A DNA stretch of 64,000 nucleotides. Source: a virus (lineage: Duplodnaviria; Caudoviricetes). The notes under the pieces were generated by a model, which saw only the letters and a program-made list of their open reading frames with translations, did not search any database and was not told the origin of the DNA. The DNA lies in the IMG/VR virus record IMGVR_UViG_3300025362_000477. One strand, 5' to 3'. Every line of letters begins with the position of its first letter. The first letter of the stretch is position 1. Positions 2,587 to 53,978 of this stretch are shown piece after piece. A program made the position numbers and the translations under genes.

Positions 2587-3765
2587 TTGATGGATGGAAT
2601 AAAGAATAAATTTAAAAGGAATATTATGCTCAAATGTAAAATATGCAATTCTGAATTTGATAAGAGTTTTCATTTATCTATTCATATCAAACAGAAACAC
2701 AATATACCAATTAAAGACTATTATGATAAATACTATAAAACAGAAGATGAAGGTTTTTGTAAAACATGCAGAAAAACAACCAAATTTCAATGTATGACTA
2801 ATGGATATATTACATATTGTTGTAATAGATGTGCTGCGATGGATAAAGATTTACAAAAAATAAAAAAATCAAAAATGAAAGTTCATTATAGAAATGGATC
2901 TATCCAAAAGAAAACCAAAGAAACATGTAATGAACGGTATGGTGTAGATAATCCATCTCAATCTAAAAAAATAAAAAATAAAAAGAAACAAACATTCCGA
3001 CAAAATTATGGAGTTGATAATTGTTTTCAACATCCAAAAATTCAAGAAAAATCAAAAGAAACATGTTTAGAAAAATATGGCGTAGAATATTCAGGATCAT
3101 CACCAATCGTACAGAAAAAGAAAAAACAAACATGTTTAAAAAAATATGGAGTAGAACATTATTCTGAAACAGATGAATACAAAGAGAAAATCAAACATAC
3201 ATGTAATGAACGGTATGGTGTAGATAACGTATTTGAATTAGATGAAATTAAAAAAAAATCCAAAGAATCATGTCTTAAAAAATATGGTACGGAATTTGCC
3301 TCACAATCAATAATAGTAAAAGATAAATCAAAAGAAACATGCATGTTGAAATTTGGAGTTGATAATCATGCTAAGACTTACATAGCAAGATTGAAATCTA
3401 GAAACATGCTGATTGAACGAATTAAAAAAGAAAATGGAAATAAGATAAATCCGATGAGAGGTAGTGGTGAAAAACCATGCTTTGATGAATTAGAAAAACA
3501 TATCCCATTTAAAATCGATAGAGATTTTACTAAAATTGGTTACTTCCCAGATGGATTCATTCATGAACTTAATTTAGTGATTGAATTTGATGAACCTGAA
3601 CACCAGTCTAGAGAATGGTATAAGGAACATGATATGAGGCGGAATTCTGATTTTGAAAAAATTGGTTATGAAACCCATAGAATTAAAAAAATCAATTGGG
3701 ATGATGATCCCAATAAATGTATAAAGAAATTCAAAAATATAATAACAAAATTAGACGGAGAATGA
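2587..3765 (+). CDS. free-standing putative homing endonuclease (same family as 258..1412)
   Basis: CKIC...H...H, many KYGVE/RYGVDN repeats, YFPDGFIHELNLVIEFDEPEH. Likely start MLKCK at 2626. Confidence 0.8.
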   Translation: MMDGIKNKFKRNIMLKCKICNSEFDKSFHLSIHIKQKHNIPIKDYYDKYYKTEDEGFCKTCRKTTKFQCMTNGYITYCCNRCAAMDKDLQKIKKSKMKVHYRNGSIQKKTKETCNERYGVDNPSQSKKIKNKKKQTFRQNYGVDNCFQHPKIQEKSKETCLEKYGVEYSGSSPIVQKKKKQTCLKKYGVEHYSETDEYKEKIKHTCNERYGVDNVFELDEIKKKSKESCLKKYGTEFASQSIIVKDKSKETCMLKFGVDNHAKTYIARLKSRNMLIERIKKENGNKINPMRGSGEKPCFDELEKHIPFKIDRDFTKIGYFPDGFIHELNLVIEFDEPEHQSREWYKEHDMRRNSDFEKIGYETHRIKKINWDDDPNKCIKKFKNIITKLDGE

Positions 3766-22725: not shown

Positions 22726-23961
22726 TTATGAATTAACTGACATATTAGGAGCAATGATAACAGATTCTATCAATTCAGATATAGTTTTATCAAAGATAGT
22801 TTTAAACTTCTCATCATTGTGATATAATGGATAAGCATCTTTTGTCCGAAATTTCTTTTCATCATAACCTAATATATAATTCCATGCCCCTGATTTAATC
22901 CTTTTATTATCAACTAAAAATTGATAGCTAGTCCAGAAGTTTGATACACCTCTATTAAAATCTACCATTAAAGTTATTGGTACATGAGGTCTAAAAAACT
23001 TATTTTTTACAAATGATGCTTCAATCTTAACACCATTGAATCCATATTGCTCAAACTTTAGATCTCCCCTATTCCTAAGAAACAATAAATGAAATGCATT
23101 AAATTTAACAGCCTGTCCACCAGGAATATCTTTATTTCCGAGTTTCTGCAAATCATTCGGGGCACTGAACATTCCCATATCAAGTTTTTCTCTAAGTTGA
23201 TTAACCGCAATTATAGAGATATTTGAACTTCTCATCTTTGGAAGGAATCTAGGGAATAGTTGAGATAACACTCGAGCTTTTAACCCAACTGTTTTATTAA
23301 TATCAACATCCTCTGATTCAATACCCTTTTTAGTATCAGTATTTGCTATAGAATCCCATGCAATAACAGAGGGGCATTCAACTATCTTTCTCTCTTGCTT
23401 AAATGCAGAAATAGCTTCAACTGTCTGAAAGATACTCTCAACAGAAACATTATCATAAGGAACTAATTTTGGATGATTCACACCCATCTGTTCCAATCTC
23501 TCAGTTGTCATACCATTTTCAGAATCATGGTAAGTAGCGAGCATTTTCCCACCATATTTTCTCTGACCAGCAGCAATCGTTTGCCCTAATAAAGAACTCT
23601 TGAATGTTCCTGGATTTCCCACAATCATAGTAAATGTACCAACACCAAAACCACCACCAGCAATAGCATCTAAAAGATCTATCCCAGTTGGAAATCTTTC
23701 AATACGAGAATTATCATTTTTAATATCAATTTTCTCTTCAATAAACTCAGATAGATCAGCTGTTAGTTGAAATATCTGCTCTTCTTCAGTCGAAACTTTT
23801 GCAACCTCAATTGCAGCTTCTGCCTTTTCTTTATCCTCTTCAGTAATAACAACTGAATTAACAACTTGTGCTACAACTTGTGCGGCAACAACATCTTGTT
23901 CTTTTAATTTTGCAGCAGTCAATTTAACGCCACTATCCCCAAGTACTGGATTATCACTCAT
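22726..23961 (-). CDS. RecA/UvsX-like recombinase
   Basis: FPTGIDLLD, GNPGTFKS Walker A, DSE, IAWDSIA Walker B, AVNQLR, PGGQAVKF, KNK motifs. Confidence 0.88.
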   Translation of the reverse strand: MSDNPVLGDSGVKLTAAKLKEQDVVAAQVVAQVVNSVVITEEDKEKAEAAIEVAKVSTEEEQIFQLTADLSEFIEEKIDIKNDNSRIERFPTGIDLLDAIAGGGFGVGTFTMIVGNPGTFKSSLLGQTIAAGQRKYGGKMLATYHDSENGMTTERLEQMGVNHPKLVPYDNVSVESIFQTVEAISAFKQERKIVECPSVIAWDSIANTDTKKGIESEDVDINKTVGLKARVLSQLFPRFLPKMRSSNISIIAVNQLREKLDMGMFSAPNDLQKLGNKDIPGGQAVKFNAFHLLFLRNRGDLKFEQYGFNGVKIEASFVKNKFFRPHVPITLMVDFNRGVSNFWTSYQFLVDNKRIKSGAWNYILGYDEKKFRTKDAYPLYHNDEKFKTIFDKTISELIESVIIAPNMSVNS

Positions 23962-26398: not shown

Positions 26399-26665
26399 CT
26401 ATTGATTTTGTATAATGTTAATAATTTTCACAGAATTTAAATTTTTTAAAAGAGTTGAAGTATCAACTATCTTATCCAATGAATCATTTAAAATAACTGG
26501 TAATTGTTGACTTGTGTTCAATTTAGTTAATGCCCGTTTAATTTTCAAAATTTTGACATCTCCAAATGAACCTTTTTTCAGTTCAACATAAGGAATATCA
26601 GGTAAAAATTTTTTAGCTATTTTACATGATTTACAATTTTCGATACCAACGATAATCATCATCAA
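26399..26665 (-). CDS. glutaredoxin-like protein
   Basis: IVGIENCKSC (CxxC) and QQLPVIL; near the RNR. Confidence 0.6.
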   Translation of the reverse strand: MMMIIVGIENCKSCKIAKKFLPDIPYVELKKGSFGDVKILKIKRALTKLNTSQQLPVILNDSLDKIVDTSTLLKNLNSVKIINIIQNQ

Positions 26666-27714
26666 CCACCATATTCTGAAAGAGCTTTAACTAATAAACC
26701 TTCAGCAACTGCTGTTAAGGGATCATCAGCCATACGAACATGTTTCACATCAAATGCAAAATCCTCTTTATATTCTGTTAATACCTCATTAAATAAAGGC
26801 AGGAATCCAGTAGCAAGTGAAGTTCCACCACTAACAATAATAGAAAGAGATTCAGGTAAATCAATATTATCAGTAACTTGATTTAATTTCACTTTAATTT
26901 GATCGAGTGAATAACGAATCATCTCTCTATAATAATAAACAATCGCTTCCCTAGTACGTCTTTCTTTCTTACCACCAATAGTAAAATTCTGGAGGTCAGT
27001 ATTACGTTCTTTAATAGCAGTAATTCTATTAGGTACAGTCCCCATTGAATTAGCTACATTTTCATCAATCCAATCTCCAGAACGAGCAACACTAAATGTT
27101 ACAACTGGAACGCTCTTATACGCGAGACACACATTGACCATACCCGCGCCAAATGAAAATGATAATCCAGTAAATTGATCATCTTGACAATGACTGTATA
27201 TAATAGCCATAGCTTCATTGAATGATTGTGCTCGATATCCGAGATCAGAAAATATTCTATGAAATACACCTTCATGATATGTTATATTATTTTTAGAATC
27301 AATTGATTCAGCTGGTACACTATATATACAATGACCATCATTTGTTGTACCAACTAATTTCTTTATAATCAACTCTAAAATATCAAGACTATCAATCTCA
27401 CTTGGAGATATTAACCCTTTTGACATAGGTCTCTTTACACTCTTCCCAAATATATTGCTAAAATTAAAAGCATCATTTCCAATAATATAAACGGAATCAT
27501 CAGTCTCAACATAGTCTATATTTGATAGCTCTGCCATGGGTACTTGACTTTTATCGAGAGGTAAATACATATTTCTAATAGATGAAATTTCAGCAGATTT
27601 ACCTTTAGGTTCAGCCAGTACTATATTCATAGTCCCACAATCAACCGCGATAATACGAGGTGGTTTCGGAGCTGTTAGATCTACAACTTCTGATTTTGTT
27701 TTCTTTTCAGGCAT
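26662..27714 (-). CDS. actin-fold ATPase (MreB/MamK/ParM-like)
   Basis: Phosphate-1 VDCGTMN, PMSKGLI, FNEAMA connect-1, SFGAGMVN phosphate-2, SGDWID, VSGGTS adenosine motif, DPLTAVAEG connect-2. Confidence 0.85.
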   Translation of the reverse strand: MPEKKTKSEVVDLTAPKPPRIIAVDCGTMNIVLAEPKGKSAEISSIRNMYLPLDKSQVPMAELSNIDYVETDDSVYIIGNDAFNFSNIFGKSVKRPMSKGLISPSEIDSLDILELIIKKLVGTTNDGHCIYSVPAESIDSKNNITYHEGVFHRIFSDLGYRAQSFNEAMAIIYSHCQDDQFTGLSFSFGAGMVNVCLAYKSVPVVTFSVARSGDWIDENVANSMGTVPNRITAIKERNTDLQNFTIGGKKERRTREAIVYYYREMIRYSLDQIKVKLNQVTDNIDLPESLSIIVSGGTSLATGFLPLFNEVLTEYKEDFAFDVKHVRMADDPLTAVAEGLLVKALSEYGG

Positions 27715-28624
27715 TTATATTCTCCAAGGTAGATTTAAATTCACTTATTACTAAATTTTTATTTTGTTCCCATTTATTCTTTTTAATTCTTATACACTTG
27801 AATCCATATTTCATATAATCCTCATCTTTCTGAATATCATAAGGTTTATATGTTTCATAATTATCAATAAAATGATGACGTTCATCAAATTCTATTACTA
27901 ATTTCAATTCTTCAATATACCCATCAGGAAAATATCCAATCATTCGTGGATTTCGAATTATTTTATATTGAGTATGTTTTTGTATCTCATTCAAACACGG
28001 ACGTTCCATATCACCAATATTTGGCATCAATGGTTCACCATTTAATTTTTGCATTTCAACTCTATTGATTGCTATATTTCTTAATTTCAAACGAACAGAA
28101 TATATTTGACTTGGATTTTCTACTCCATATTTATTCATGCATGTTTTCTTCTTTTTCTCTTTGATATATTTAGATTTATTAGGATTATCAACACCATATT
28201 TTTTTAAATATGAATATTTTTTTTTCTGTTTTATTTTTTCTAATTGATTTGGATTTTCTACTCCATATCTAAACATGCAAGTATCTTTTTGTTTCTGCCG
28301 AATCTCAATATTCTCACTTGGTGATCCACACCCAAATCTATCATAACAAGTTATTTTAAATTTATTCCGAACTATCAATGAATTTGAAGAACATTTATTA
28401 CTACAATATATTCGATAACCACTTACTATATTTTGATAGTATGTAGGATCCCCACATACAAGACATATATCTTCATTTTCTTTTTTAAGATATTTATCAT
28501 AATATTCTTTAGATGATAAATGATGTTTTTGTCTAAAATGAGAAACTAAACCTTTCACTAATTTAAATTCTTTACTGCAAATTTTACATTTAAGATCCAT
28601 TCTTCTCTGCCATAGTAGCACCAA
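27707..28624 (-). CDS. free-standing putative homing endonuclease (family of 258..1412)
   Basis: CKIC...H...H, KYGVENP repeats, YFPDGYIEELKLVIEFDERHH. Likely start 28600. Confidence 0.8.
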   Translation of the reverse strand: MVLLWQRRMDLKCKICSKEFKLVKGLVSHFRQKHHLSSKEYYDKYLKKENEDICLVCGDPTYYQNIVSGYRIYCSNKCSSNSLIVRNKFKITCYDRFGCGSPSENIEIRQKQKDTCMFRYGVENPNQLEKIKQKKKYSYLKKYGVDNPNKSKYIKEKKKKTCMNKYGVENPSQIYSVRLKLRNIAINRVEMQKLNGEPLMPNIGDMERPCLNEIQKHTQYKIIRNPRMIGYFPDGYIEELKLVIEFDERHHFIDNYETYKPYDIQKDEDYMKYGFKCIRIKKNKWEQNKNLVISEFKSTLENINA

Positions 28625-33663: not shown

Positions 33664-34128
33664 TTAATGAACGTCCAATACTTTTAAACAAAAAGATGGA
33701 ATTACACCATCAGAACATTCAATAGCAGTCCGAGGTAAAGAATTTAAATCATCCTCATTAGCAATCATAGATGATAATTTTTTAGAGTATTTAACTAATA
33801 TCTTTTCAATATCAAACTCATCTAATGTACCCTTTTCCCATTCAAAATTAACCGGTTTAATAATAACCTTCTGATCTTTAATCTTTGATAATTTAGATGC
33901 AGATATTTTAACAGGAGTATGACTTTCCAAATATCCAGAATATTTATTTGGAGGTATCCTAGTAAAAAATGCAGTTATAGATCCTTCTTCTCCACATGAA
34001 AGACCATTTTCCTTAATATCTTCTATTTCATCATTTGATATATAAGCATAAAGATATGGTTTTATTATAAGCATATCAATATTTGGATCACCTAGTACAA
34101 TTTCTGAAATTATTTTATATCCGTTCAT
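33664..34128 (-). CDS. hypothetical protein
   Basis: Co-oriented ORF with RBS. Confidence 0.65.
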   Translation of the reverse strand: MNGYKIISEIVLGDPNIDMLIIKPYLYAYISNDEIEDIKENGLSCGEEGSITAFFTRIPPNKYSGYLESHTPVKISASKLSKIKDQKVIIKPVNFEWEKGTLDEFDIEKILVKYSKKLSSMIANEDDLNSLPRTAIECSDGVIPSFCLKVLDVH

Positions 34129-35137
34129 TATTAATTACCTCTTTAAATTTTTGTATAATAGGTTCTGAATCAGATAACCATTCAGATTCTTTGATTCTAA
34201 AAACTATATAACCTAAATCATTATAAATTTCATTCTTTTTTTTATCATGTAATATGGCCCATGGTTTTCTATGATATGATTCATCAATTTCAATTATTAA
34301 ATCTAAATGTTCAACTAAACCATCAGGATAAAATCCACCTATAATCTGATTTCTCAAAATATTATTTTGCACAATAAACTGTAACTGCTCTATTATGATG
34401 TCTTCATTCAATCCTTTACCAGGAAATCCAAATATGTTAAATCTTGCGAAATTTTTACGAGCAATATCTTTACATTTATCTGTTTTAGAATAATTATCAA
34501 CACCATATTTTTTAAGACATGATTTTTCAATTTTCAATCTAATAATATCTGAACCAAATCCAACTCCACCATATTTTTTTACACATGATAATTTTTGTTT
34601 TAATTTAACCTCTTCTGATTGATTCGGACTGGATGTACCATAATTTTCAAGTGATGTTTTTTTACTTTTATTCTGAATTATTTTAGATTGTAACGGACAC
34701 TCTACACCCCAATTCTTTATAGATGTCTTAATTTTTTTATGTTTTACAATAATTGATTGAGATGGGTTGTCTACTCCATATCGTTTATTACATGTTATTC
34801 TATTTTTTAACAAACATTCTTTGGATCTACATTGACATTTTCTACTACAGTAATCATAATACCCATACCGATAACCTTTAAAATTAGTCAAAGATCCGCA
34901 CGTCAAACATATTCCATCGTTTTTTGTTTTTATAAATTTATCATAATAATCTTTCATTCTAAATTTATGACATTGAAATAAATGTGCCGCAAATCCCCTA
35001 AGATCATTTATTTCATATTCATCACATATTTTACATTTATCCATGATCAAACACCACATTAGGAATAGCTGATCTTTCAAATTTCTCGATAGTTCTATCA
35101 TAAATCTCTTTCCCATCTTGATATAGCATATCACCAT
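34115..35137 (-). CDS. free-standing putative homing endonuclease (family of 258..1412)
   Basis: CKIC...H...H, YGVDNPS repeats, FYPDGLVEHLDLIIEIDESYH. Likely start 35044. Confidence 0.8.
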   Translation of the reverse strand: MVICYIKMGKRFMIELSRNLKDQLFLMWCLIMDKCKICDEYEINDLRGFAAHLFQCHKFRMKDYYDKFIKTKNDGICLTCGSLTNFKGYRYGYYDYCSRKCQCRSKECLLKNRITCNKRYGVDNPSQSIIVKHKKIKTSIKNWGVECPLQSKIIQNKSKKTSLENYGTSSPNQSEEVKLKQKLSCVKKYGGVGFGSDIIRLKIEKSCLKKYGVDNYSKTDKCKDIARKNFARFNIFGFPGKGLNEDIIIEQLQFIVQNNILRNQIIGGFYPDGLVEHLDLIIEIDESYHRKPWAILHDKKKNEIYNDLGYIVFRIKESEWLSDSEPIIQKFKEVINNERI

Positions 35138-43342: not shown

Positions 43343-44084
43343 ACATCTCCCACCATTTTTTAATGTAAGCTATAGTATTACATGATCTAATTGTTGGATT
43401 AATTGGATTCCTAAATTCACGTTCATATTTATTTATAATTGAATGATTTGCATCTGATATAAATGGGACAAATATACCAATACTAAACAATACTGCACAT
43501 TTTCTAAAGCATGCAGAACATTTCATACATTCATCAGTAATATATGAATATCTATCACCATCCATAAAATAATGATATGATTGTTTAGGTGTGGGATTAA
43601 AACAAGAAAAGGTATCTTTTAACAAATTCATCTTAAGTGCCGGATGATTACATGAATACCAACTGATCATATCAGATTTATAACAATTATAAAAGGGAGA
43701 ATCGATCTCACAATAACTCTTATTGACATTTGTTAATAGACGTGATACATCTCTACATACTTCAAATTTATTGTCACCAATCCTATCTGATAGTGACCCA
43801 CCCAACCATACTTTATCATAACCCAATGAATTCGCATATATAGTCATTAAAAGATTTCTATTTGGAATATGAGCATCATCGCATTCAATAGTTTGAAAAT
43901 TAAGATCTTCACAGAATCTCATATTACTTATATTTAAAGATTTAATCTTTTCAATCTCATTCTTACAATATCGACCCTTATGATTGAAATATAAACAATC
44001 AAATTGATGTCCATTATCTAAAAGATACTGTCTAGCGATAAAACTATCCAATCCACTGCTATAAAGTAAACATTCTTTTCTCAT
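43326..44084 (-). CDS. queC: 7-cyano-7-deazaguanine synthase-like PP-loop ATPase
   Basis: LLYSSGLDS, HIPNRNLL, K..MI, SCFNP...CMKCSACFRK zinc site. Confidence 0.82.
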   Translation of the reverse strand: MRKECLLYSSGLDSFIARQYLLDNGHQFDCLYFNHKGRYCKNEIEKIKSLNISNMRFCEDLNFQTIECDDAHIPNRNLLMTIYANSLGYDKVWLGGSLSDRIGDNKFEVCRDVSRLLTNVNKSYCEIDSPFYNCYKSDMISWYSCNHPALKMNLLKDTFSCFNPTPKQSYHYFMDGDRYSYITDECMKCSACFRKCAVLFSIGIFVPFISDANHSIINKYEREFRNPINPTIRSCNTIAYIKKWWEMCDGES

Positions 44085-45129
44085 TTATAATCTCCTTAAA
44101 AATATCTATTATATTATTTCTATTTTGTTCCCAGTCTCGTTTTTTGATTCTAAAAATTTGCAAACCTTCACTTAGATAATCATGATCCTTTCGAATATCT
44201 TTATCTATATAAATTTCCCAACCATCTAAAAAATGTTGACTCTCATCAAATTCAATAACTAATTTTAACTCTTCAATATATCCATCTGGAAAATATCCAA
44301 TTATTTTATGATTTCTTTGAATTTTTAAATCAGTATATTTTTGTAATTCGTTTAAACATTGTCTTTCATCATGACCTATTCGTGGACATAATGGTTCACC
44401 ATTAAGTTTTTGAGCCTCAATAAAAGAAATAGCAGAATTCCTACATAACATTCGACCTTCATCAGTCTTAGTCCAATGATCAACTCTATAACGTAATCTA
44501 GATGATTCTTTTTTCTTTTCTTTCACATAAGGTATTTGGGAAACATTATTCACACCATAAATTATATTACATGTATTTTTAGCTTTTAATCTAGATTTAA
44601 CATAATCTTTCCTTAATGAACTATCTCTTAATTTTTTCTTTACTATTGATGATTTTGAAACATTATCAACTCCATATTTTTGAATGACAGTTTTTTTTAT
44701 TTTTAATTGAATTTCCGCATTTCCCAGTGCAGATTTACAACCAAATCTTTTAATACATGTAATATATCCATTTTGTTTAATTTGATCATTCTGGTATGGC
44801 CGATTAACTCCATATCTATCTTGAAAAGTTTTGATCTGTTTAGACATTATCTCTTTATTTTTCAAATGATGTGTTTCACCATATCTTTGAATGTTAGTAG
44901 CTATATGTTTGTCTTTTACATCTTGAGAATTAGCAGAACATTTACGACTACAATATTTTGAATATCCACCAAGTCCATTAAATGTAGTATCGTTCCCACA
45001 TTGAATGCATTTTCCATCACCCGGTTTCAATAAATATTGATCATAATAATCTTTAAGATGAATTTTATGAGTTCTAATAAGATGAGTTCCTAGAGCCTTA
45101 TATTCTTTACCACACAGTTCACATTTCAT
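44059..45129 (-). CDS. free-standing putative homing endonuclease (family of 258..1412)
   Basis: CELC...H...H, YGVDNVS repeats, YFPDGYIEELKLVIEFDESQH. Confidence 0.8.
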   Translation of the reverse strand: MKCELCGKEYKALGTHLIRTHKIHLKDYYDQYLLKPGDGKCIQCGNDTTFNGLGGYSKYCSRKCSANSQDVKDKHIATNIQRYGETHHLKNKEIMSKQIKTFQDRYGVNRPYQNDQIKQNGYITCIKRFGCKSALGNAEIQLKIKKTVIQKYGVDNVSKSSIVKKKLRDSSLRKDYVKSRLKAKNTCNIIYGVNNVSQIPYVKEKKKESSRLRYRVDHWTKTDEGRMLCRNSAISFIEAQKLNGEPLCPRIGHDERQCLNELQKYTDLKIQRNHKIIGYFPDGYIEELKLVIEFDESQHFLDGWEIYIDKDIRKDHDYLSEGLQIFRIKKRDWEQNRNNIIDIFKEIINEKRMFTL

Positions 45130-45205
45130 AGTATATCCTACATTTTAATTTATTCATAAAATGTTTCAACCAGATGTAAATAGTATTAACTCCTTTTTAT
45201 TTTAT

Positions 45206-45604
45206 TCACAACTGTAGAGATTTGATATATTTTACAGCATCATCTACATCAGAAACAATCATATGTACATGAGCTTCAATCCATAAATCTCCTTGACATA
45301 TTTCATTAGGGTTTATAACAATAACAGGAATAGTATTTTGTAAGAATGCATGATATATTTCCATAGCTGTTCCAAAACTAGGTCTTTCAATATAAGCAAT
45401 TACTACATCACTTGAATTGATTAATGCTTTATCTCTAGGAACCATAGTTAAATCACATTCATTTGAAGGATCGGGATCTATAAACTCATAACGACCATCT
45501 AAATCATCTACAAAATTATCACACAATCTAGCTTTCCATGTATTAGCAGGTTCTTCTTCATATATAGTACCTGCTAAATAAACTCTTATCTTTTTATCAT
45601 TCAT
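45206..45604 (-). CDS. nucleoside 2-deoxyribosyltransferase-like protein
   Basis: VYLAGTI, FIDP, RDKALINSSDVVIAY, SFGTAMEI. Confidence 0.8.
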   Translation of the reverse strand: MNDKKIRVYLAGTIYEEEPANTWKARLCDNFVDDLDGRYEFIDPDPSNECDLTMVPRDKALINSSDVVIAYIERPSFGTAMEIYHAFLQNTIPVIVINPNEICQGDLWIEAHVHMIVSDVDDAVKYIKSLQL

Positions 45605-45903
45605 AATTCAATCCTTTGATTCAGCTCATTCAATGATGAGTTTGCATTATGATATCTCTGCCACCATAACATCATCGCTCTATTCGCAATGTCATGGAGG
45701 TGCAAGCAATCTTGATCAAGGTGCTGTATAAAGGCATCAGCCTTTAAATCTTTAGCGATATGATCGGCATAAAAAGGGTCATCCCACCCTCGATATCCCT
45801 GCGCGGCCTTTTCGTATAACCTAAATCGCATATCTTCTGTGAAAAGCGATAATGCTTTGTCAATCTCTCGACACTCTTTTGTATATGTTTTTTGTCTTGG
45901 CAT
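45601..45903 (-). CDS. cassette gene: small all-alpha phage protein (possible NTP-PPase-related)
   Basis: F.EDM..RL.EKA..GY.GWD...HDIANRAMMLW; reads through the relic core ATTATGA at 45646. Confidence 0.6.
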   Translation of the reverse strand: MPRQKTYTKECREIDKALSLFTEDMRFRLYEKAAQGYRGWDDPFYADHIAKDLKADAFIQHLDQDCLHLHDIANRAMMLWWQRYHNANSSLNELNQRIEL

Positions 45904-45925
45904 CTCTTTATTCTCCTGAACTTAA

Positions 45926-46004
45926 TCATAACAATTGAATGGAGAACTACCTCCAATCCGCTCGTTCCTCGCTCCTTTACGGAGTCTCATTCATGGCGTT
46001 CAGT
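45926..46004 (+). other. attC-1 (79 bp, complete)
   Basis: R'' TCATAAC-5nt-L'' AATGGAGA ... L' TCTCATT-6nt-R' GTTCAGT; left arm AAT[G]GAGA[A]CT[A]CC pairs with GGAGTCTCATT. Confidence 0.88.
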
Positions 46005-46231
46005 GTACTGAATGCAATCTGCACGAGCGATGGGTCCGCATCGCGGAACCGTGACGCCATCGTACCTTTCAGCCTTATTGTGACAACAAGCCTGCCGTGG
46101 TCTTCGTCCTCGAATTGAACCACATCACCAATGACGGGACGCACCGAACAAGATGCTGGACAAGTACCCAAAGGGGCCCTGTTGATCTCATTCATAGCCT
46201 CTCCGCTTGTACACTCATTATACTTTTTCAT
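45977..46231 (-). CDS. cassette gene, hypothetical
   Basis: Start MKKYNE at 46231 lies inside the attC-2 loop; ends LNAMNETP* inside attC-1. Confidence 0.65.
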   Translation of the reverse strand: MKKYNECTSGEAMNEINRAPLGTCPASCSVRPVIGDVVQFEDEDHGRLVVTIRLKGTMASRFRDADPSLVQIAFSTLNAMNETP

Positions 46232-46269
46232 AAATTCCCCCTTTGGGACTGTCAGCATTAGCGTTATAT
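46143..46269 (+). other. attC-2 (127 bp, complete)
   Basis: R'' ACCGAAC-5nt-L'' GCTGGACA ... L' TGTCAGC-6nt-R' GTTATAT; GCT[G]GACA[A]GT[A]CCCAAAGGGG pairs with CCCCTTTGGGACTGTCAGC. Confidence 0.9.
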
Positions 46270-46465
46270 GATTATAAAATCCTTGAACTCATTGATTATA
46301 TAATCAGTTTGGCTCGTTCCTTTAATATCTTGCAAATCATCAATCACAAAACTGATTGTTTTTGTGCACCTTTGCAACATGTATTTCAATCGTATTGCGG
46401 ACTAACGCGATATGAATCGAGTCAGCGGTTAATGATTCTTTTAATTTCAAAATTTCTGTTAACAT
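46264..46465 (-). pseudogene. cassette gene with a 1-nt frameshift (not in ORF track)
   Basis: GGAG RBS + ATG at 46465 (MLTEILKLKES...) to the TAA inside the attC-2 core spans 202 nt = 67 codons + 1. Confidence 0.55.
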
Positions 46466-46483
46466 TCCTGCTCCCTCATTTTA

Positions 46484-46541
46484 AGATAACAAAAACATGC
46501 ACCGTACGGCGTACTGCCGGCATGCGATGTTGGTGTTATGT
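46484..46541 (+). other. attC-3 (58 bp, right arm degenerate)
   Basis: R'' AGATAAC-5nt-L'' CATGCACC GTACGGCGTAC ... GTTATGT; left arm shared with attC-6. Confidence 0.75.
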
Positions 46542-46768
46542 TATTTAATCTCAATTCGTTTGCCACAAAACGGGCAGAATTTCCAATCCTGTTCTTTTGG
46601 CCCGAAATCCTCAAACCAATAATTAGCACCATAGCTTGTTTGCCAGTCGTTGGATTCTGGTTGATTTTCCCAGACCCAACAATCTACTGAGCAAGTACCC
46701 GAATGGGCTGTCAGAGGGCAATCGTCACGTCTTATCATATCACCTTTATCATTGTATGTTATTCGCAT
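46541..46768 (-). CDS. cassette gene: small zinc-ribbon-type phage protein
   Basis: WQTSYG...WKFCPFCGKRI; start lies inside the attC-4 loop after GGAG. Confidence 0.7.
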   Translation of the reverse strand: MRITYNDKGDMIRRDDCPLTAHSGTCSVDCWVWENQPESNDWQTSYGANYWFEDFGPKEQDWKFCPFCGKRIEIK

Positions 46769-46813
46769 TTCAACTCCTTGTCCCCTTTGGGACTGTCAGC
46801 ATTAGTGTTGGGG
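46674..46813 (+). other. attC-4 (140 bp, related to attC-2)
   Basis: R'' ACCCAAC-5nt-ACTGAGCA AGTACCCGAATGGG ... CCCCTTTGGGAC TGTCAGC-6nt-R' GTTGGGG. Confidence 0.8.
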
Positions 46814-47034
46814 AGAATTGGTGTCCGCCCGCACGCTCTCCAAAATGCATCCAGTTGTTCCAGCGTTCGGAACTTCATTTCTCCGTAGGTGTTATCTGTT
46901 TCTTCGACGCACTCGATTACTGCATTAAGTGTGCCCCATAAACGGCAAGCTATTGTGCCTGATCCGCAAACGCCTCTAGTTGATTTTAAATCTTCCTTGG
47001 CATTTAATATTCGCAACTTTAATCTATCTTTCAT
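46759..47034 (-). CDS. cassette gene, hypothetical
   Basis: GGAG RBS; C-terminus PNTNADSPKGDKELKCE is read through the attC-4 right arm. Confidence 0.65.
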   Translation of the reverse strand: MKDRLKLRILNAKEDLKSTRGVCGSGTIACRLWGTLNAVIECVEETDNTYGEMKFRTLEQLDAFWRACGRTPILPNTNADSPKGDKELKCE

Positions 47035-47120
47035 AATATTCTCCTTTTGGGGCTGTTTTTGGTTGTTTGTTTTCGTTGCTCATAATTCATTCTCTCCGGT
47101 TGTGCTGGCTCCCGTTGTCC

Positions 47121-47140
47121 GGTGAGCCAGAGCGTTATGA
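47121..47140 (+). other. attC-5, right half only
   Basis: L' GGTGAGC-CAGAGC-R' GTTATGA; no matching left arm found. Confidence 0.7.
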
Positions 47141-47341
47141 ATTTTTCAACCCTCTAATTTTACCAGCAATCTCTCGCAGTTCATCCGATTTAACTAAAAA
47201 ATCACCTTCAACGTAAGCCATACTCTCTTTAATGGCTTTACGTTGCTCGTTTTCGTATTTCATGCCTTGAATATCGCAACATACCGCTGTGCCCTCAATT
47301 GCGAGTGCTTCAAATTCTAAAGCTCTTTCTTCTCTACTCAT
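47135..47341 (-). CDS. cassette gene, hypothetical helical protein
   Basis: AAGGAG RBS and MSREERA start at 47341; stop TAA lies inside the attC-5 core. Confidence 0.7.
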   Translation of the reverse strand: MSREERALEFEALAIEGTAVCCDIQGMKYENEQRKAIKESMAYVEGDFLVKSDELREIAGKIRGLKNS

Positions 47342-47361
47342 ATTGTTTCTCCTTAATTTTA

Positions 47362-47426
47362 AGATAACAAGCACATGCACATGCACCGTACGGCGTACCA
47401 CAGACAGGTGATGCTAGGCGTTGGGT
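47362..47426 (+). other. attC-6 (65 bp, with a 6-bp duplication in the left arm)
   Basis: R'' AGATAAC-AAGCA-(CATGCA)-CATGCACC ... L' GGTGATG-CTAGGC-R' GTTGGGT. Confidence 0.85.
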
Positions 47427-47698
47427 TTAATAACATCATCCAGCATCCACCTTGCAAGCGCGACTACAGAGCATCTCTCACAATGCGATACGGCTTGGCA
47501 GTCGCACGGTCTTGGCTCAAAGCGCGTTAGCAAAAATTCCGCTGTTCGCTTGGCTGCTATGTGCCAGTGGTCTGGATGAAACTGGCACATAGGGGTACAC
47601 TTTCTTTCGCATCCAGCGCAATGCTCTGAATGCCTACCCAACAAGTCAGTCGAGCATACCTTTTGGGGCGTTTTCGGTTGTTCGTTTTCTTTACTCAT
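47414..47698 (-). CDS. cassette gene: Cys/His-rich putative zinc-binding protein
   Basis: HCAGCERKCTPMC...CDCQAVSHCERC; N-terminus reads through attC-7, C-terminus PNA* lies in attC-6. Confidence 0.7.
   Translation of the reverse strand: MSKENEQPKTPQKVCSTDLLGRHSEHCAGCERKCTPMCQFHPDHWHIAAKRTAEFLLTRFEPRPCDCQAVSHCERCSVVALARWMLDDVIKPNA
47636..47655 (+). other. attC-7, left half only
   Basis: R'' ACCCAAC-AAGTC-L'' AGTCGAGC; R'' is the exact complement of the attC-6 core GTTGGGT. Confidence 0.7.
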
Positions 47699-48492
47699 AA
47701 TCTAAACGCTTCACTCGATAAAAAATTTGTTGCATTTTTTCCTTCTGAAAATTCATATATTGGGATATTATACTTAATACATATTGGTGTAAGAAGGATA
47801 TTGGGGAACGTAAATAACTTCTTACTACTTGTAATATAATTAACGATCATTTGATTATCTTTTGTTATAACATGGTTGATATTAGTTAATTTCTTCAACC
47901 TTAATACATCAGAATAAGGCAGTATCTTATTAACATCTCCTATTAAACATATTATATAATCATTAAATCGTTTTGATATCTGTCCAATACATTTGAAATC
48001 TATTCTATTTCCGTTATTACTGTTTTCTAAATTAATAGTTATGAAATCTCTATGAAGTTTAATATCTTTTGTTTTATCTATATCAACAGATATTATTTCT
48101 TTAACTTCAATCTCCTCTAATATAGTTGGTGCTTTTTCCTTTGGTGTTGGTATAACAGCTGGCCGATCTATTTTTTCATCTTCTGTTCTATTATCAGACT
48201 TAATATAATTTTCAATACATGCACCATTATGTATATCTTTACCACATCGTTCACAAAGATTTTTCTTCTTTCTATAACTTATAATAGTTTCTTTTTTTCT
48301 TTCTCTTTTTAGATCCAATTGCACTTCTGGAGGTTCTGGTATCCCTCTCATATCAGACTTAATATAATTTTCAATACATTCACCTTCATGGATATCTTTA
48401 CCACATCGTTTACATAATCCTTTACGTTTTCGATGACCAATAATCACAGCTTTTCTAAGTCTTATTTTCTGTTCAGCTTTTGTTTCGCTCAT
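47695..48492 (-). CDS. hypothetical protein with a duplicated CxxC...H...C motif
   Basis: LCKRCGKDIHEGECIENYIKSD and LCERCGKDIHNGACIENYIKSD. Confidence 0.7.
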   Translation of the reverse strand: MSETKAEQKIRLRKAVIIGHRKRKGLCKRCGKDIHEGECIENYIKSDMRGIPEPPEVQLDLKRERKKETIISYRKKKNLCERCGKDIHNGACIENYIKSDNRTEDEKIDRPAVIPTPKEKAPTILEEIEVKEIISVDIDKTKDIKLHRDFITINLENSNNGNRIDFKCIGQISKRFNDYIICLIGDVNKILPYSDVLRLKKLTNINHVITKDNQMIVNYITSSKKLFTFPNILLTPICIKYNIPIYEFSEGKNATNFLSSEAFRL

Positions 48493-48905
48493 TAGTCCTC
48501 TTTTATAAAATTAGGTGGTTTAGTTGGATTTTCATACAATTCTCGTAAATGATTAAGTAACATAAGTTGACGTTCTATAAATTTAATTTGTCTTTCTTCC
48601 CATCCATTATGAGTATGCACTCCCTTTATAATTTCAATAAAATTTTTACATATATCAATATAAGAAGTAACTTCAATAATAGCAATATAAATCAAATCAT
48701 TTTCAAAAACAATTTTATTTCTAGTAATGGACGTTAAATACTTATATATCAATTCATAGTTTTTATTTAATTCTTTATCTTTTCCAGTTATTTTAAATTT
48801 ACCAAGGAAAACAGTTTGTTCACATGTACGTTTAAAATTCCTTATAAATTTATGATTATCAAATGTCTGATAGTTAAAGTCTAAATTTTGGTTTTTATTT
48901 TTCAT
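48492..48905 (-). CDS. hypothetical protein
   Basis: First gene of the leftward block. Confidence 0.65.
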   Translation of the reverse strand: MKNKNQNLDFNYQTFDNHKFIRNFKRTCEQTVFLGKFKITGKDKELNKNYELIYKYLTSITRNKIVFENDLIYIAIIEVTSYIDICKNFIEIIKGVHTHNGWEERQIKFIERQLMLLNHLRELYENPTKPPNFIKED

Positions 48906-49087
48906 TATTATTTGTTCTTAATAGTGTATTTCTATTCATTCTTAATTATAATACAAAAAACAAGTAAGAAATACTGTAGGTAATGGATTAAAAATTAAAA
49001 CAAGTATGAAGTTGAGAATTAATTTAGAAGTATGTCATTTAGATTCCTTTACGATTGTTATTTTATTATACTTATTTTTGTTAACTT

Positions 49088-49189
49088 TTACTAAATAGTA
49101 ATACGGTTCCGAACGGAAGAACCTTTCAGGTTCATCAATATTATCCCTCCTCCCGGAGGGATAAATGGGTTAGAGAGATTCTCTAACCC
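49088..49189. other. cluster of five tandem perfect hairpins in the divergent intergenic region
   Basis: TTACTA-AA-TAGTAA; TTCCG-AA-CGGAA; GAACCT-TTC-AGGTTC; TTATCCCTCC-TCCC-GGAGGGATAA; GGGTTAGAGA-GAT-TCTCTAACCC. Confidence 0.8.
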
Positions 49190-49364
49190 TTGGTTTACAT
49201 GCTTATTTTTTATTCTAACGTTTCAAAATGGTTTCTTTAGATATTTCAGTAAGAAACACAATATTATATTAAAGAATAAATTTAAAATTAATGATGGATA
49301 ACGTTGATATTTCTCATTGAATAGAAAATATCATAATAAATAAATACAAAAATGGAGAATTAGA

Positions 49365-49649
49365 ATGAGTGATGAAACACAGACATATTATGAGTTTATT
49401 GAACGCATAAAGAATAAATTTGGTTCTTTTGAATTAGATGCACAGGCTGGGGCAGATAATAAATCAGCAGCACTACGAGCTCGAAAACTTTCAATGGAGC
49501 TGCGTCGGGATCTACAGGATTTTCGTAAGGTATCCGTTGATAATGATCGGGTTAATACAAAGCATCGTCCTGAGACTGTTGCGGTAGAAGTTAGTGATGC
49601 ACCGGCAGCAGGTGAGCCAGTCGCTATGCCTGATGAAGCAGTAGTATAA
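49365..49649 (+). CDS. histone H1-like (Hc1-family) small basic protein
   Basis: IK..F.SFE.DA....NKSAALRARKLSMEL...LQDFRKVS pattern. Confidence 0.7.
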   Translation: MSDETQTYYEFIERIKNKFGSFELDAQAGADNKSAALRARKLSMELRRDLQDFRKVSVDNDRVNTKHRPETVAVEVSDAPAAGEPVAMPDEAVV

Positions 49650-52989: not shown

Positions 52990-53151
52990 ATGAAAAATAA
53001 TCAAATAACTATTGATATTAATCCAGACATTCGATATGCAGCTAAATTATTAGCTAAAAAATTTGATGTATCTTTAAAATATATTATTCGTATAGCATTA
53101 ATTGATATTTTGAAAAAACATAATTGTGATATTCCCGTGGAAGAATTATGA
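52990..53151 (+). CDS. 53-aa ribbon-helix-helix-like protein (not in ORF track)
   Basis: MKNNQITIDINPDIRYAAKLLAKKFDVSLKYIIRIALIDILKK...; AAGGA RBS; ATGA overlap with the next gene. Confidence 0.7.
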   Translation: MKNNQITIDINPDIRYAAKLLAKKFDVSLKYIIRIALIDILKKHNCDIPVEEL

Positions 53152-53978
53152 AATTATGTGAATGCGGTTGTGGTAAAGAAGTTAATTCCAAATCTGCTCG
53201 ATTTATATCTGGACATAATATTAAAAAAGGACATAAATGGAAACCAAGAACTGATGAACATGCTAAAAAAATTATAAATACTAGAGTTGAAAATAAAAGA
53301 TTATTTGATTTAAATATTCCGTTTTCATTATGTAAATGTGGTTGTGGGAAACGAGTTTCAAAAAGAACTAATGTTTATATTGAAGGTCATCATCCTAGAA
53401 TCGCAGGGTTTAAAGATCATAAACATAGTCAAAAAACTAAAGACTTATTTTCAAAAATTTATAAAAGCCAAGAATTTAAAGATAAAGTATTTAAAACTAT
53501 GATTGATCGTTATGGAGTTAAACATGCTTTTCAAAATCCAAAATTTATTAAAAAAGCTAATAAGACTTATTTTGAAAAAACAGGATATCATAATCCATCA
53601 AAAAATCCTTTAGAGATCGCAAAAGCTTTAAAGACTAGAAGAAAAACTAATTTAGAACGAGGTATTTGGATACCAGATGATCAATTACCTATGTTTCAAC
53701 TTTACTATAGAAGAGTGTGGCATTATACCAATATAGCAGCGAAGTTAAAATATGATGATGAAAAATTATCAAAAAGAAAACTATGTGGTGTTAAAAATGG
53801 TTTACAATTAGATCATAAGTTTTCTATTCGAAAAGGATATGAAAATAATATTTTACCGCATATAATAGGTAGTCAATACAATATCAATTTAATTTCATGG
53901 GAAGATAATAGATTAAAAAATATCAGTTGTTCTATAACAAAAGAAGAACTTTTTGAACACGTTAACAAGGAAAACTAA
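53148..53978 (+). CDS. putative homing endonuclease (CxCGCG + NUMOD3-like + HNH-like)
   Basis: Two CxCGCG...GH units, KHSQKTK, LQLDHKFS...NLISWEDNRLK. Confidence 0.75.
   Translation: MKLCECGCGKEVNSKSARFISGHNIKKGHKWKPRTDEHAKKIINTRVENKRLFDLNIPFSLCKCGCGKRVSKRTNVYIEGHHPRIAGFKDHKHSQKTKDLFSKIYKSQEFKDKVFKTMIDRYGVKHAFQNPKFIKKANKTYFEKTGYHNPSKNPLEIAKALKTRRKTNLERGIWIPDDQLPMFQLYYRRVWHYTNIAAKLKYDDEKLSKRKLCGVKNGLQLDHKFSIRKGYENNILPHIIGSQYNINLISWEDNRLKNISCSITKEELFEHVNKEN

What the first reader, a model, noticed from the sequence alone, without database searches (positions are those of the whole stretch)
45977..47698. All cassette genes are inverted, and attC sites double as coding sequence and translation-start modules
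SEEN: by bulge position the attC top strand is +, but every cassette ORF is on -. In attC-2 and attC-4 the loop holds the RBS, the ATG and about 20 N-terminal codons, and the protein reads through L''/R'' (PLGTCPASCSV, HSGTCSVDCWV). Upstream genes stop at the TAA within or next to GTTA (46264, 46541, 47135) or read into the neighbouring site (LNAMNETP*, PNA*, PNTNADSPKGDKELKCE*, the last overlapping the next start). KNOWN: most integron cassettes are co-oriented with attC and rely on Pc. INFERENCE: this architecture suits read-through from the phage leftward transcription unit, and reshuffling would swap C-termini and translational coupling.
Basis: partly seen in the sequence, partly recalled or inferred. 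Interest (0 to 1): 0.72.

Follow-up and report, generated by a model that had tools for sequence, protein, structure and literature searches.

The report
Mirrored integron-type cassettes in a phage
A 2.1-kb foreign island in a giant salt-lake phage is a row of small swappable genes separated by integron-type DNA hairpins, and some hairpins are built back to front, so that they also carry the ribosome-binding site, start codon and first 13-34 codons of the next gene.

Summary
Window 45601-47701 is a GC-rich island (44% against about 30%) with seven small minus-strand genes. They are separated by imperfect palindromes bounded by AAC...GTT.

**Sites 2 and 4.** These carry three one-base bulges at positions 16-17, 20-21 and 24 from the outer end of the GTT box. 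This is the geometry of real attC sites, but on the arm opposite to that of a control attC (aadA1 of plasmid R100). The gene-sense strand is therefore the "bottom" strand. Their loops hold the Shine-Dalgarno sequence, the ATG and 19-21 codons, and the far arm is translated.

**Cassette footprint.** The box after GTT matches the reverse complement of the box before the next AAC at 51 of 68 positions. Permuted pairings give 29.7 +/- 4.

**Metagenome relatives.**
- One leader sits on four unrelated gene bodies.
- One gene body carries two different leaders.
- Five different C-terminal tails follow the same AAC codon.

**Limits.**
- Polarity is secure only for the leader-bearing sites; sites 1, 3 and 6 are ambiguous.
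- No integrase lies in the window.
- Several breakpoints lie inside the sites, so homologous recombination also acts.

attC clusters in phages were published in 2023. This scan has noted similar mirrored phage arrays on other DNA. I class this as a new variant of a known kind.

The parts
47636..47701 (-). Site 7: the 3' half of a gamma-type site. It holds the ATG, the leader MSKENEQPKTPQKVCSTDL and the box GTTGGGT (ACCCAAC on +, 47636-47642). The right end of the island lies at ATTATGA (47695-47701).
   Evidence: Repeat D3 matches site 5. The alignment with gamma sites starts at ATTATGAG. GC content drops from 50% to 29% here.
47414..47698 (-). ORF A, 94 aa. The cargo is bounded by GTTGGGT ... 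ACCCAAC (7 of 7 complementary). The tail is PN|A*.
   Evidence: No Pfam or PHROG family.
47362..47426 (.). Site 6, delta type: AGATAAC ... GTTGGGT on the + strand. It folds poorly and has one bulge on the gene-sense 3' arm.
   Evidence: Repeats D2 and D4 match site 3. Fold z is +1.26. Arm alignment.
47135..47341 (-). ORF B, 68 aa counted from the ATG behind AAGGAG. Its stop TAA lies inside TCATAAC.
47024..47140 (-). Site 5, a hybrid. It has a gamma-type 5' half: the box TCATAAC, a small hairpin, a Shine-Dalgarno sequence, the ATG at 47083 and the 19-codon mini-ORF MSNENKQPKTAPKGEYYER. At ACAGCCCC this half is fused to a beta-like arm and Shine-Dalgarno sequence that serve ORF C.
   Evidence: An X4 contig continues the same leader into a full GTCPxPC arm (loose end at 47055).
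46759..47034 (-). ORF C, 91 aa. It reads through the box and arm of site 4 and overlaps the start of ORF D.
46674..46813 (.). GTTGGGG on the + strand. The loop holds AAGGAG, the ATG at 46768 and 21 codons. Bulges lie at 18, 21 and 24 on the gene-sense 3' arm. There are several mismatches.
46541..46768 (-). ORF D, 75 aa, with a zinc-ribbon-like C-terminus. No homologue was found outside this phage.
46484..46541 (.). Site 3, delta type: AGATAAC ... GTTATGT on the + strand. It is the best-folding short site. Its polarity is ambiguous.
   Evidence: Fold z is -2.7. It ranks at the top of the AAC..GTT scan. The bulge is C16 on the gene-sense 5' arm.
46264..46465 (-). ORF E: two overlapping 41-aa frames, probably a frameshifted cassette gene.
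   Evidence: An X4 variant contig covers it.
46143..46269 (.). GTTATAT on the + strand. It has a 21-bp stem with three one-base bulges. The loop holds the Shine-Dalgarno sequence, the ATG at 46231 and 19 codons.
   Evidence: In one search the bulges fall at 17(16), 21(20) and 24 on the gene-sense 3' arm.
45977..46231 (-). ORF F, 84 aa. The cargo module 45998-46149 is bounded by GTTCGGTG ... CACTGAAC. The tail AMNETP* is a remnant of a neighbouring gene's start.
45926..45970 (.). Site 1: a short alpha-like palindrome (TCATAAC ... GTTCCTC on the + strand) with a weak fold.
45601..45903 (-). ORF G, 100 aa. In relatives it ends at QRYHNA* on TCATAAC. Here the box is mutated to CATAAT and the frame runs on.
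45601..45652 (-). Site 0: a degenerate, AT-enriched 5' half of a gamma site. The hairpin CTCAT..ATGAG is kept by changes on both arms. The left end of the island lies at ATTATGA (45601-45607), which is also the start of ORF H.
   Evidence: Alignment A4.

Best explanation
The stretch is a horizontally acquired piece of an integron-type cassette array, that is, a cluster of attC-like sites with no integrase nearby. It sits in the leftward gene block of a giant T4-like salt-lake phage.

**Units.** Small gene bodies ('cargos') are bounded by G|TT ... AA|C and joined by imperfect palindromes.

**Leader-bearing sites.** These are the beta type (sites 2 and 4) and the gamma type (sites 5 and 7 and remnant 0). 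In them the palindrome is mirrored relative to classical cassettes:
- The strand with the bottom-strand geometry is the coding strand.
- The site lies in front of its gene.
- Its variable loop carries the Shine-Dalgarno sequence, the ATG and a 13-34-codon leader.
- Its bulged arm is translated as GTCPxxC.
- The conserved GTT sits in a Cys TGT codon.

**Consequences.**
- Cargos without their own start are expressed as in-frame fusions.
- The gene upstream ends on TAA inside TAAC, or reads through AAC into the next site. Its last residues therefore depend on its neighbour.

**Shown here:** the anatomy, the cassette footprint, the attC-like bulge geometry, and the reassortment of leaders, cargos and tails in other metagenomes.

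**Inferred:**
- A tyrosine recombinase of the IntI or Xer kind, encoded elsewhere, acts on the folded single strand.
- In the mRNA the same stem hides the Shine-Dalgarno sequence, so that translation is coupled to the upstream gene.
- In this phage the array is a decaying passenger. It entered by a crossover at the ATTATGA start region of a gamma site.
For: 1. **Cassette footprint.** For 17 cargos, the box after GTT matches the reverse complement of the box before the next AAC at 51 of 68 variable positions. Permuted pairings give 29.7 +/- 4.0, and none of 100000 permutations reached the observed value. Further perfect cases are GTTCGGTG..CACCGAAC in L254 and GTTCTGTG..CACAGAAC in L258.

2. 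**Bulge geometry.** Sites 2, 4 and L001 S1 have three one-base bulges, all on one arm, at 17(16), 21(20) and 24. Run through the same script, the real aadA1 attC of R100 gives 16 and 23. Published attC rules give 16, (20) and 23/24, with a 6-bp stem between the first and last bulge (PMC5027507).

3. **Mirroring.** In aadA1 the bulged arm is the 5' arm of the gene-sense strand. In beta, gamma and gamma-prime sites it is the 3' arm.

4. **Modularity.**
   - The leader MKKYNEC.. is joined to the window F cargo and occurs in P0007, P0008 and the chimera P0010.
   - The P0007 cargo also carries the leader MKEFKRC.., and belongs to a widespread family that normally starts at residue 3-7 of its protein.

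5. **Cargo F in different contexts.** It keeps exact GTT and AAC ends in contigs of 42-64% GC and has a different tail in each.

6. **Reading phase.** In 11 of 12 leader sites the G of GTT is the second base of a Cys codon.

7. **Background.** The island sites top the window-wide AAC..GTT hairpin scan.

8. **Different gene order elsewhere.** Another salt-lake run holds G-delta-E, an order different from the window's (one low-depth contig).

9. **Precedent.** attC clusters in virulent phages that IntI1 can recombine are published (PMC9892861).
Against: - No tyrosine recombinase was found among the 30 window ORFs put through Pfam (10 in or beside the island, 20 of 236-429 aa), nor in the sister contigs.
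- Several breakpoints do not lie at AA|C or G|TT. The island ends lie at ATTATGA. The L002/L003 junction lies at AAGGAGAATTATG. Alpha sites swap their cores. Site 5 switches type at ACAGCCCC.
- Cargo-to-site linkage fails equally often on either side, so no single polarity explains the arrays.
- Alpha sites measure 44-46 nt from AAC to GTT, 52 nt with both 7-nt boxes, below the published 57-141 nt range, and do not fit attC geometry. Sites 1, 4 and 6 fold poorly.
- In L254 no clear hairpin follows cargo F.
- The curated attC covariance model was not available, and no recombination was observed directly.
Confidence: 0.55

Rival explanations
1. The palindromes are conserved intercistronic linker modules made of a stem-loop, a 5' UTR, a Shine-Dalgarno sequence and sometimes a leader. 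The phages' own homologous-recombination machinery shuffles them, as described for PeSL elements of T4-type phages. No site-specific recombinase is involved.
For: - The phage encodes a UvsX/RecA-type recombinase at 22726-23961 and no integrase was seen.
- Breakpoints lie at the ribosome-binding site or ATG and inside hairpin cores.
- Conservation of the alpha and delta modules runs past GTT to the Shine-Dalgarno sequence: GTTATCTTAAAATTAAGGAG precedes three different cargos.
- PeSL-mediated modular shuffling is published for T4-like phages (PMC2839356, PMC4122927).
Against: - Homologous exchange within linkers does not predict that the two boxes flanking one cargo should be complementary.
- It also does not predict three bulges at attC positions on one arm.
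- Promoter-like and terminator-like sites are not enriched: 19 found against 20 expected, and 3 against 2.2. The defining promoter part of a PeSL is therefore not seen.
Confidence: 0.25
2. The long stems are mainly RNA structures. The arm in the 5' UTR, which contains the Shine-Dalgarno sequence, pairs with codons 20-30 to gate translation. The shared DNA reflects a shared regulatory leader, not a recombination site.
For: - As RNA, the minimum-energy fold pairs the Shine-Dalgarno sequence AAAGGGG with CCCCUUUGGG in site 2 and in L001 S1.
- In L254 a different Shine-Dalgarno sequence (GGATG) pairs with CATCC of the same codons. The pairing is thus kept through changes on both arms.
Against: - The translated arm is conserved where the 5' arm is missing (L003 2438, L069).
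- Fold z-scores are only -1.4 to -1.6.
- This reading does not explain the complementary boxes across cargos. It is compatible with the best explanation rather than exclusive of it.
Confidence: 0.1
3. The shared N-terminal peptides are functional protein tags, for example a Cys knuckle or a targeting or modification signal. Other leader-sharing protein arrays occur in this same phage. On this reading the palindrome is incidental.
For: - Leader differences are mostly synonymous and include an in-frame indel.
- The leaders carry conserved cysteines.
- Earlier notes of this scan report N-terminal tags on arrays of small proteins elsewhere in this genome.
Against: - The arm region has zero differences between the window and L001, synonymous sites included, whereas the 18 codons in front of it have four.
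- Homologues of the P0007 cargo normally lack any leader.
- The leader families differ widely apart from the arm.
Confidence: 0.1

Closest known systems
Clusters of attC sites lacking an integrase (CALINs) in virulent phages (Qi, Rajabal, Ghaly, Tetu, Gillings 2023, PMC9892861)
   Same: - Several attC-type hairpins between small genes in a phage genome, with no integrase nearby.
- Boundaries lie at short repeated motifs, which suggests capture by illegitimate or homologous recombination.
   Different: - Those arrays were called by the standard attC model and were mostly in the usual gene orientation.
- Nothing is reported there about start codons or leaders inside the sites.
- Here the sites were not tested with that model or in a recombination assay.
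Classical integron cassettes and attC sites (for example aadA1 of In2 on plasmid R100; Vibrio chromosomal integron repeats)
   Same: - AAC/GTT boxes.
- Bulges at about positions 16, 20 and 24.
- A size of 127-140 nt for the beta sites.
- The box of each cassette is complementary to the preceding core.
- One site family is shared by many unrelated cargos.
- The stop codon lies inside the box.
   Different: - The bulged arm lies on the opposite side relative to the gene.
- The site precedes its gene and supplies its start.
- There is no intI, attI or Pc.
- The first bulge is C where G is usual.
- Site-to-cargo linkage is broken on both sides.
PeSL promoter/stem-loop cassettes of T4-type phages (PMC2839356, PMC4122927)
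   Same: Short conserved intergenic modules with a stem-loop flank small genes of unknown function in the plastic regions of T4-like phages, and mark insertion, deletion and swap points.
   Different: - A PeSL carries an early promoter and recombines by homology.
- Here no promoter signal was found.
- The sites have attC geometry.
- The cargos have complementary end boxes.
Synthetic attC sites embedded in protein-coding sequence (Nivina et al. 2020, PMC7439510)
   Same: An attC-type hairpin is also read as protein, so recombination could join coding segments in frame.
   Different: Those sites were designed in the laboratory as linkers or placed inside lacZ. Here the embedding is natural and includes the ribosome-binding site and start codon.
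Class 1 integron cassettes that lack their own start and borrow translation signals from upstream sequence (aac(6')-Ib N-terminal fusions, ORF-11 in attI1). This item is recalled from my own knowledge and was not checked here.
   Same: The N-terminus of the protein depends on what lies upstream of the cassette junction.
   Different: In those cases the borrowed start lies in attI or in the preceding cassette, in the usual orientation. It does not lie in the loop of the gene's own mirrored attC.

Membership tests
attC recombination site (integron cassette site) | An imperfect palindrome closed by conserved AAC and GTT triplets within 7-nt boxes. | tested here: met
   Sites 1-4 and 6 and the sister sites begin at AAC and end at GTT. 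The match to RYYYAAC/GTTRRRY beyond the triplet is only partial.
attC recombination site (integron cassette site) | Extrahelical bases on one arm only, at positions 16, (20) and 23/24, with about 6 bp between the first and last (PMC5027507). | tested here: met
   This is met for the beta sites, which give 17(16)/21(20)/24. The real aadA1 attC control gives 16/23 in the same script. Gamma sites have one bulge at 17. Delta and alpha sites are inconclusive.
attC recombination site (integron cassette site) | Length 57-141 nt. | tested here: met
   Beta sites are 127-140 nt, a gamma site about 100 nt and delta sites 58-65 nt. The alpha sites of relatives measure 52 nt with both 7-nt boxes and fall short.
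attC recombination site (integron cassette site) | The inverse core of a cassette's site is complementary to the core at the start of that same cassette. | tested here: met
   51 of 68 positions match, against 29.7 +/- 4 for permuted pairings.
attC recombination site (integron cassette site) | Detected by the curated attC covariance model or HMM (IntegronFinder, HattCI). | not testable with these tools
   The model is not in Rfam. The Rfam scan of 45000-49500 gave nothing relevant.
attC recombination site (integron cassette site) | Recombined by an integron integrase as a folded single strand. | not testable with these tools
   This needs an attC x attI assay.
Complete integron | An intI gene (a tyrosine recombinase with the extra domain), with attI and Pc, next to the array. 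| tested here: not met
   No Phage_integrase-type hit among the 30 window ORFs scanned, nor in L003 or L258. The rest of the roughly 230-kb genome was not searchable.
CALIN (cluster of attC sites lacking an integrase) | Two or more attC sites close together with no integrase nearby. | tested here: inconclusive
   The structural criteria are met for sites 2 and 4 and partly for the others. The formal attC-model call that defines a CALIN could not be run.
PeSL (promoter-early stem-loop) of T4-type phages | An early sigma-70-type promoter joined to a stem-loop terminator in the repeated module. | tested here: not met
   Promoter-like and terminator-like sites are at background level. No minus-strand terminator-like site was found in the scanned region 45000-49500.

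The most novel reading that the evidence does not exclude
Phages of salt lakes and other waters run their own integron-like gene-swapping system. In it the recombination hairpin is mirrored and doubles as a portable translation-start and leader module. Recombination at either box of the site can then exchange whole genes, N-terminal leaders or C-terminal tails in frame. This would be a natural counterpart of the engineered coding-embedded attC sites, and a possible clue to how cassettes acquire their sites.
Probability: 0.3. Interest if true: 0.85.

Novelty: new variant of a known kind. Interest (0 to 1): 0.6.

Why it matters
Integron cassettes are thought of as promoterless genes followed by a non-coding hairpin and expressed from one platform promoter. 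Here the hairpin sits in front of the gene and supplies its ribosome-binding site, start codon and first residues, and the end of the previous gene runs into it.

If a recombinase really acts on these sites, three things follow:
- Phages would have a way to move small genes that stay translatable wherever they land in a long operon, without a Pc promoter.
- Recombination could remodel protein termini in frame.
- It would give a natural test case for two open questions in integron biology: what sets strand choice, and how a gene acquires its attC.

The practical weight is limited. The cargo functions are unknown, and in this phage the array looks like a decaying passenger.

Tried and rejected
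**DNA and pattern searches**
- A nucleotide search of the island against 50,697 phage records gave no match.
- Exact-pattern scans of IMG/VR for the beta, delta and alpha arms gave nothing, or one chance hit in a high-GC phage (L007).
- The single metagenome and genome pattern scans were swamped by chance hits. Only L050, L069 and L071 were real relatives. No bacterial genome with this site family was found, but the pattern was too loose to count as evidence.
- Seeking an 'empty site' through the 265-aa left-flank protein in IMG/VR found no relative.

**Family searches**
- Rfam gave nothing relevant.
- Pfam and PHROGs gave no function for any cassette protein.
- ORF D has no homologue outside this phage.

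**Sequencing runs**
- No RNA holder was listed, so the transcription strand could not be tested.
- Laying contigs of four salt-lake runs gave only fragmentary cover.
- The 46455-to-48061 joint has a 21-nt side and was dismissed as unreliable.
- The G-delta-E joint rests on one 285-nt contig of depth 2.8.

**Polarity and structure**
- Inferring polarity from which site travels with which cargo gave two cases for each polarity and was abandoned.
- Box complementarity is symmetric between the strands and cannot give polarity.
- Hairpin covariation in the alpha family is only modest: 91% of positions paired and 3 compensatory pairs among 12 sequences.
- The upstream ATG at 46258 (the 93-aa form of ORF F) was rejected as the start. 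It lacks a Shine-Dalgarno sequence and is absent from L001.
- The + strand ORFs of 101 aa were rejected as antisense artefacts.
Full report
**Setting.** The window is part of a large, uncultured, T4-like phage from salt-lake metagenomes. Its family-B DNA polymerase is under 30% identical to any deposited phage, and the runs that hold the sequence are salt-lake samples. Nearly all genes from 258 to 48905 lie on the minus strand. GC content is about 30% throughout, except for 45600-47700, which reaches 42-50%. That island holds seven small minus-strand ORFs, here called A to G. None has a Pfam or PHROG family.

**The observation.**
- The stops at 46264, 46541 and 47135 are TAA inside TAAC.
- ORFs A, C and F read through an in-frame AAC into the next site. 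Their tails are PN|A*, PN|TNADSPKGDKELKCE* (overlapping the ATG of D) and LN|AMNETP*.
- Sites 2 (46143-46269) and 4 (46674-46813) share both arms. The right arm is the 5' UTR of ORFs F and D. The loop holds the Shine-Dalgarno sequence, the ATG and 19 or 21 codons. The left arm is translated as APLGTCPASCSV or AHSGTCSVDCWV.
- Folded as DNA or RNA, site 2 forms a 21-bp stem with three single-base bulges, all on the + strand 5' arm.
- In a window-wide scan of all AAC...GTT pairs, sites 3, 2 and 4 are the strongest apart from a few plain bulge-free hairpins elsewhere.

*First, the cassette footprint.* In integrons the box at the start of a cassette is complementary to the inverse box of that cassette's own site. 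In an array, complementarity therefore runs across the gene, not across the hairpin.
- For 17 cargos from the window and its relatives, the four variable positions match at 51 of 68. Permuted partners give 29.7 +/- 4.0, and none of 100000 permutations reached the observed value.
- Striking cases are GTTGGGT..ACCCAAC around ORF A, GTTCTGTG..CACAGAAC around two unrelated cargos, and GTTCGGTG..CACCGAAC around cargo F.

*Second, the geometry.* Published attC sites carry extrahelical bases on one arm at positions 16, sometimes 20, and 23 or 24 (PMC5027507).
- I fetched the real attC of aadA1 from plasmid R100 and ran it through the same script as the phage sites. It gave bulges at 16 and 23.
- Site 2 gave 17, 21 and 24. 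The first two are equivalent to 16 and 20, because the neighbouring bases are identical.
- Site 4 and the L001 beta site behaved alike.

I could not run the curated attC model, and nothing here shows recombination itself.

**Polarity.**
- In aadA1 the bulged arm is the 5' arm of the gene-sense strand. In the beta sites, and in gamma and gamma-prime sites (one or two bulges at 17 and 20), it is the 3' arm.
- For the other sites the inference fails. Site 3 gives a C at 16 on the canonical arm. Its homologue, site 6, gives a bulge on the other arm and hardly folds. The alpha sites of sister arrays fit neither polarity.
- 'All cassettes inverted' is thus shown for sites 2 and 4 and is likely for the gamma-type sites, not for the whole array.

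**Relatives and modularity.** Protein searches and look-ups by identity recovered sister arrays on short metagenome contigs of 39-46% GC: L001, L002, L003, L069, L071 and L258. Cargo F was also found in phage contigs of 42 to 64% GC. The pattern is modular.
- The leader MKKYNECTSG..APLGTCPA.C heads the window F cargo and the proteins P0007 and P0008, and is part of the chimera P0010.
- The P0007 cargo also occurs behind the leader MKEFKRC... It belongs to a widespread small phage domain that normally begins at residue 3-7 of its protein, so the leader is an add-on.
- Similarity always ends right after CTTGTT. In 11 of 12 leader sites the G of GTT is the middle base of a Cys TGT codon.
- Cargo F keeps its GTT and AAC ends in every context, and after the AAC (Asn) codon it has five different tails.
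- Leader differences between the window and L001 are three synonymous changes, one Arg/Lys change and an in-frame 12-nt indel. The arm itself is identical even at synonymous sites. The leader is probably translated, and the arm is also constrained as nucleic acid.

**What does not fit a pure integron.**
- No tyrosine recombinase is present among the 30 window ORFs scanned or in the sister contigs. The phage does encode a UvsX/RecA-type recombinase.
- Both ends of the island lie inside gamma-type sites at the same ATTATGA, the start-codon region. The left end keeps a degenerate, AT-enriched 5' half of such a site. This looks like the entry of a circular or homologous segment by a crossover at a short shared sequence.
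- Other junctions lie at the ribosome-binding site (L002 against L003), inside the alpha hairpin core, or at ACAGCCCC in site 5.
- For cargos seen in two contexts, the upstream site is the constant one in two cases and the downstream site in two others. Either both boxes, that is both strands, are used, or homologous exchange between similar sites is frequent. I cannot separate these.
- ORF E is frameshifted, site 4 is eroded and site 5 is a hybrid. In this phage the array looks like a passenger in decay. It is nevertheless held at over 99% identity in runs of 2017 and 2018.

**Mechanism proposed.**
- Shown: small cargos bounded by GTT...AAC; attC-like junctions; and, in two site families, a loop that supplies the Shine-Dalgarno sequence, the start and the leader, with a translated arm.
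- Inferred: (1) movement by a tyrosine recombinase acting on the folded coding strand; (2) expression by read-through from upstream phage promoters, with no minus-strand terminator-like site in 45000-49500; (3) translational coupling, because the stem that would be the recombination substrate also pairs the Shine-Dalgarno sequence in the mRNA and the upstream ribosome stops at or runs into it.

**Comparison and novelty.** attC clusters without an integrase in virulent phages, recombined by IntI1, were published in 2023 (PMC9892861), so the category is known. I found no paper describing mirrored sites that contain the start and leader of the gene. The nearest precedent is the synthetic embedding of attC sites in coding sequence (PMC7439510). 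PeSL elements of T4-type phages are the main rival model. Earlier unchecked notes of this scan describe similar mirrored or loop-start arrays in other phages, some beside Xer-like recombinases. I found no such recombinase for this family.

**Verdict.** This is a new variant of a known kind, of moderate to high interest.

Noticed in passing
window 258-1412, 2587-3765, 27707-28624, 34115-35137, 44059-45129, 53148-53978: Six paralogous genes combine DUF7487 with a DUF559/MTES_1575 nuclease domain and look like homing endonucleases. One sits directly left of the island, beside ORF H.
   Followed up: no
window 46264-46465 (minus): ORF E is split into two overlapping 41-aa frames and is probably a frameshifted cassette gene. 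A contig from another salt-lake run differs at 9 places here.
   Followed up: partly
L258 1726-3066: A 1.4-kb non-coding stretch with iteron-like repeats (TCACCGA/TCGGTGA and CCAGGTGAC) lies just upstream of a sister cassette array. It may be a replication origin or a regulatory region.
   Followed up: no
window 49112-49195: A cluster of strong hairpins lies in the divergent region before the DNA polymerase gene, with a weak Rfam hit to whalefall-1 RNA (E = 0.3, below the gathering score).
   Followed up: no
window 45206-45604 and L069 1096-1416: The nucleoside 2-deoxyribosyltransferase-like gene at the left edge of the island starts at the ATG of a degenerate gamma site. A DUF4406 gene of the same broad kind closes a multi-gene cassette in L069, so ORF H may itself once have been cargo.
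   Followed up: partly
L254 and L255 (61-64% GC), L248-L253 (about 52-53% GC): The same cargo F, with a short MSEQSE or MSAENE leader, occurs in high-GC contigs. There a different Shine-Dalgarno sequence (GGATG) pairs with CATCC of the CPSA codons, which is covariation of the leader stem.
   Followed up: partly
window 22726-23961 and 26662-27714: A UvsX/RecA-type recombinase and a Volactin-family protein lie in the same leftward block.
   Followed up: no
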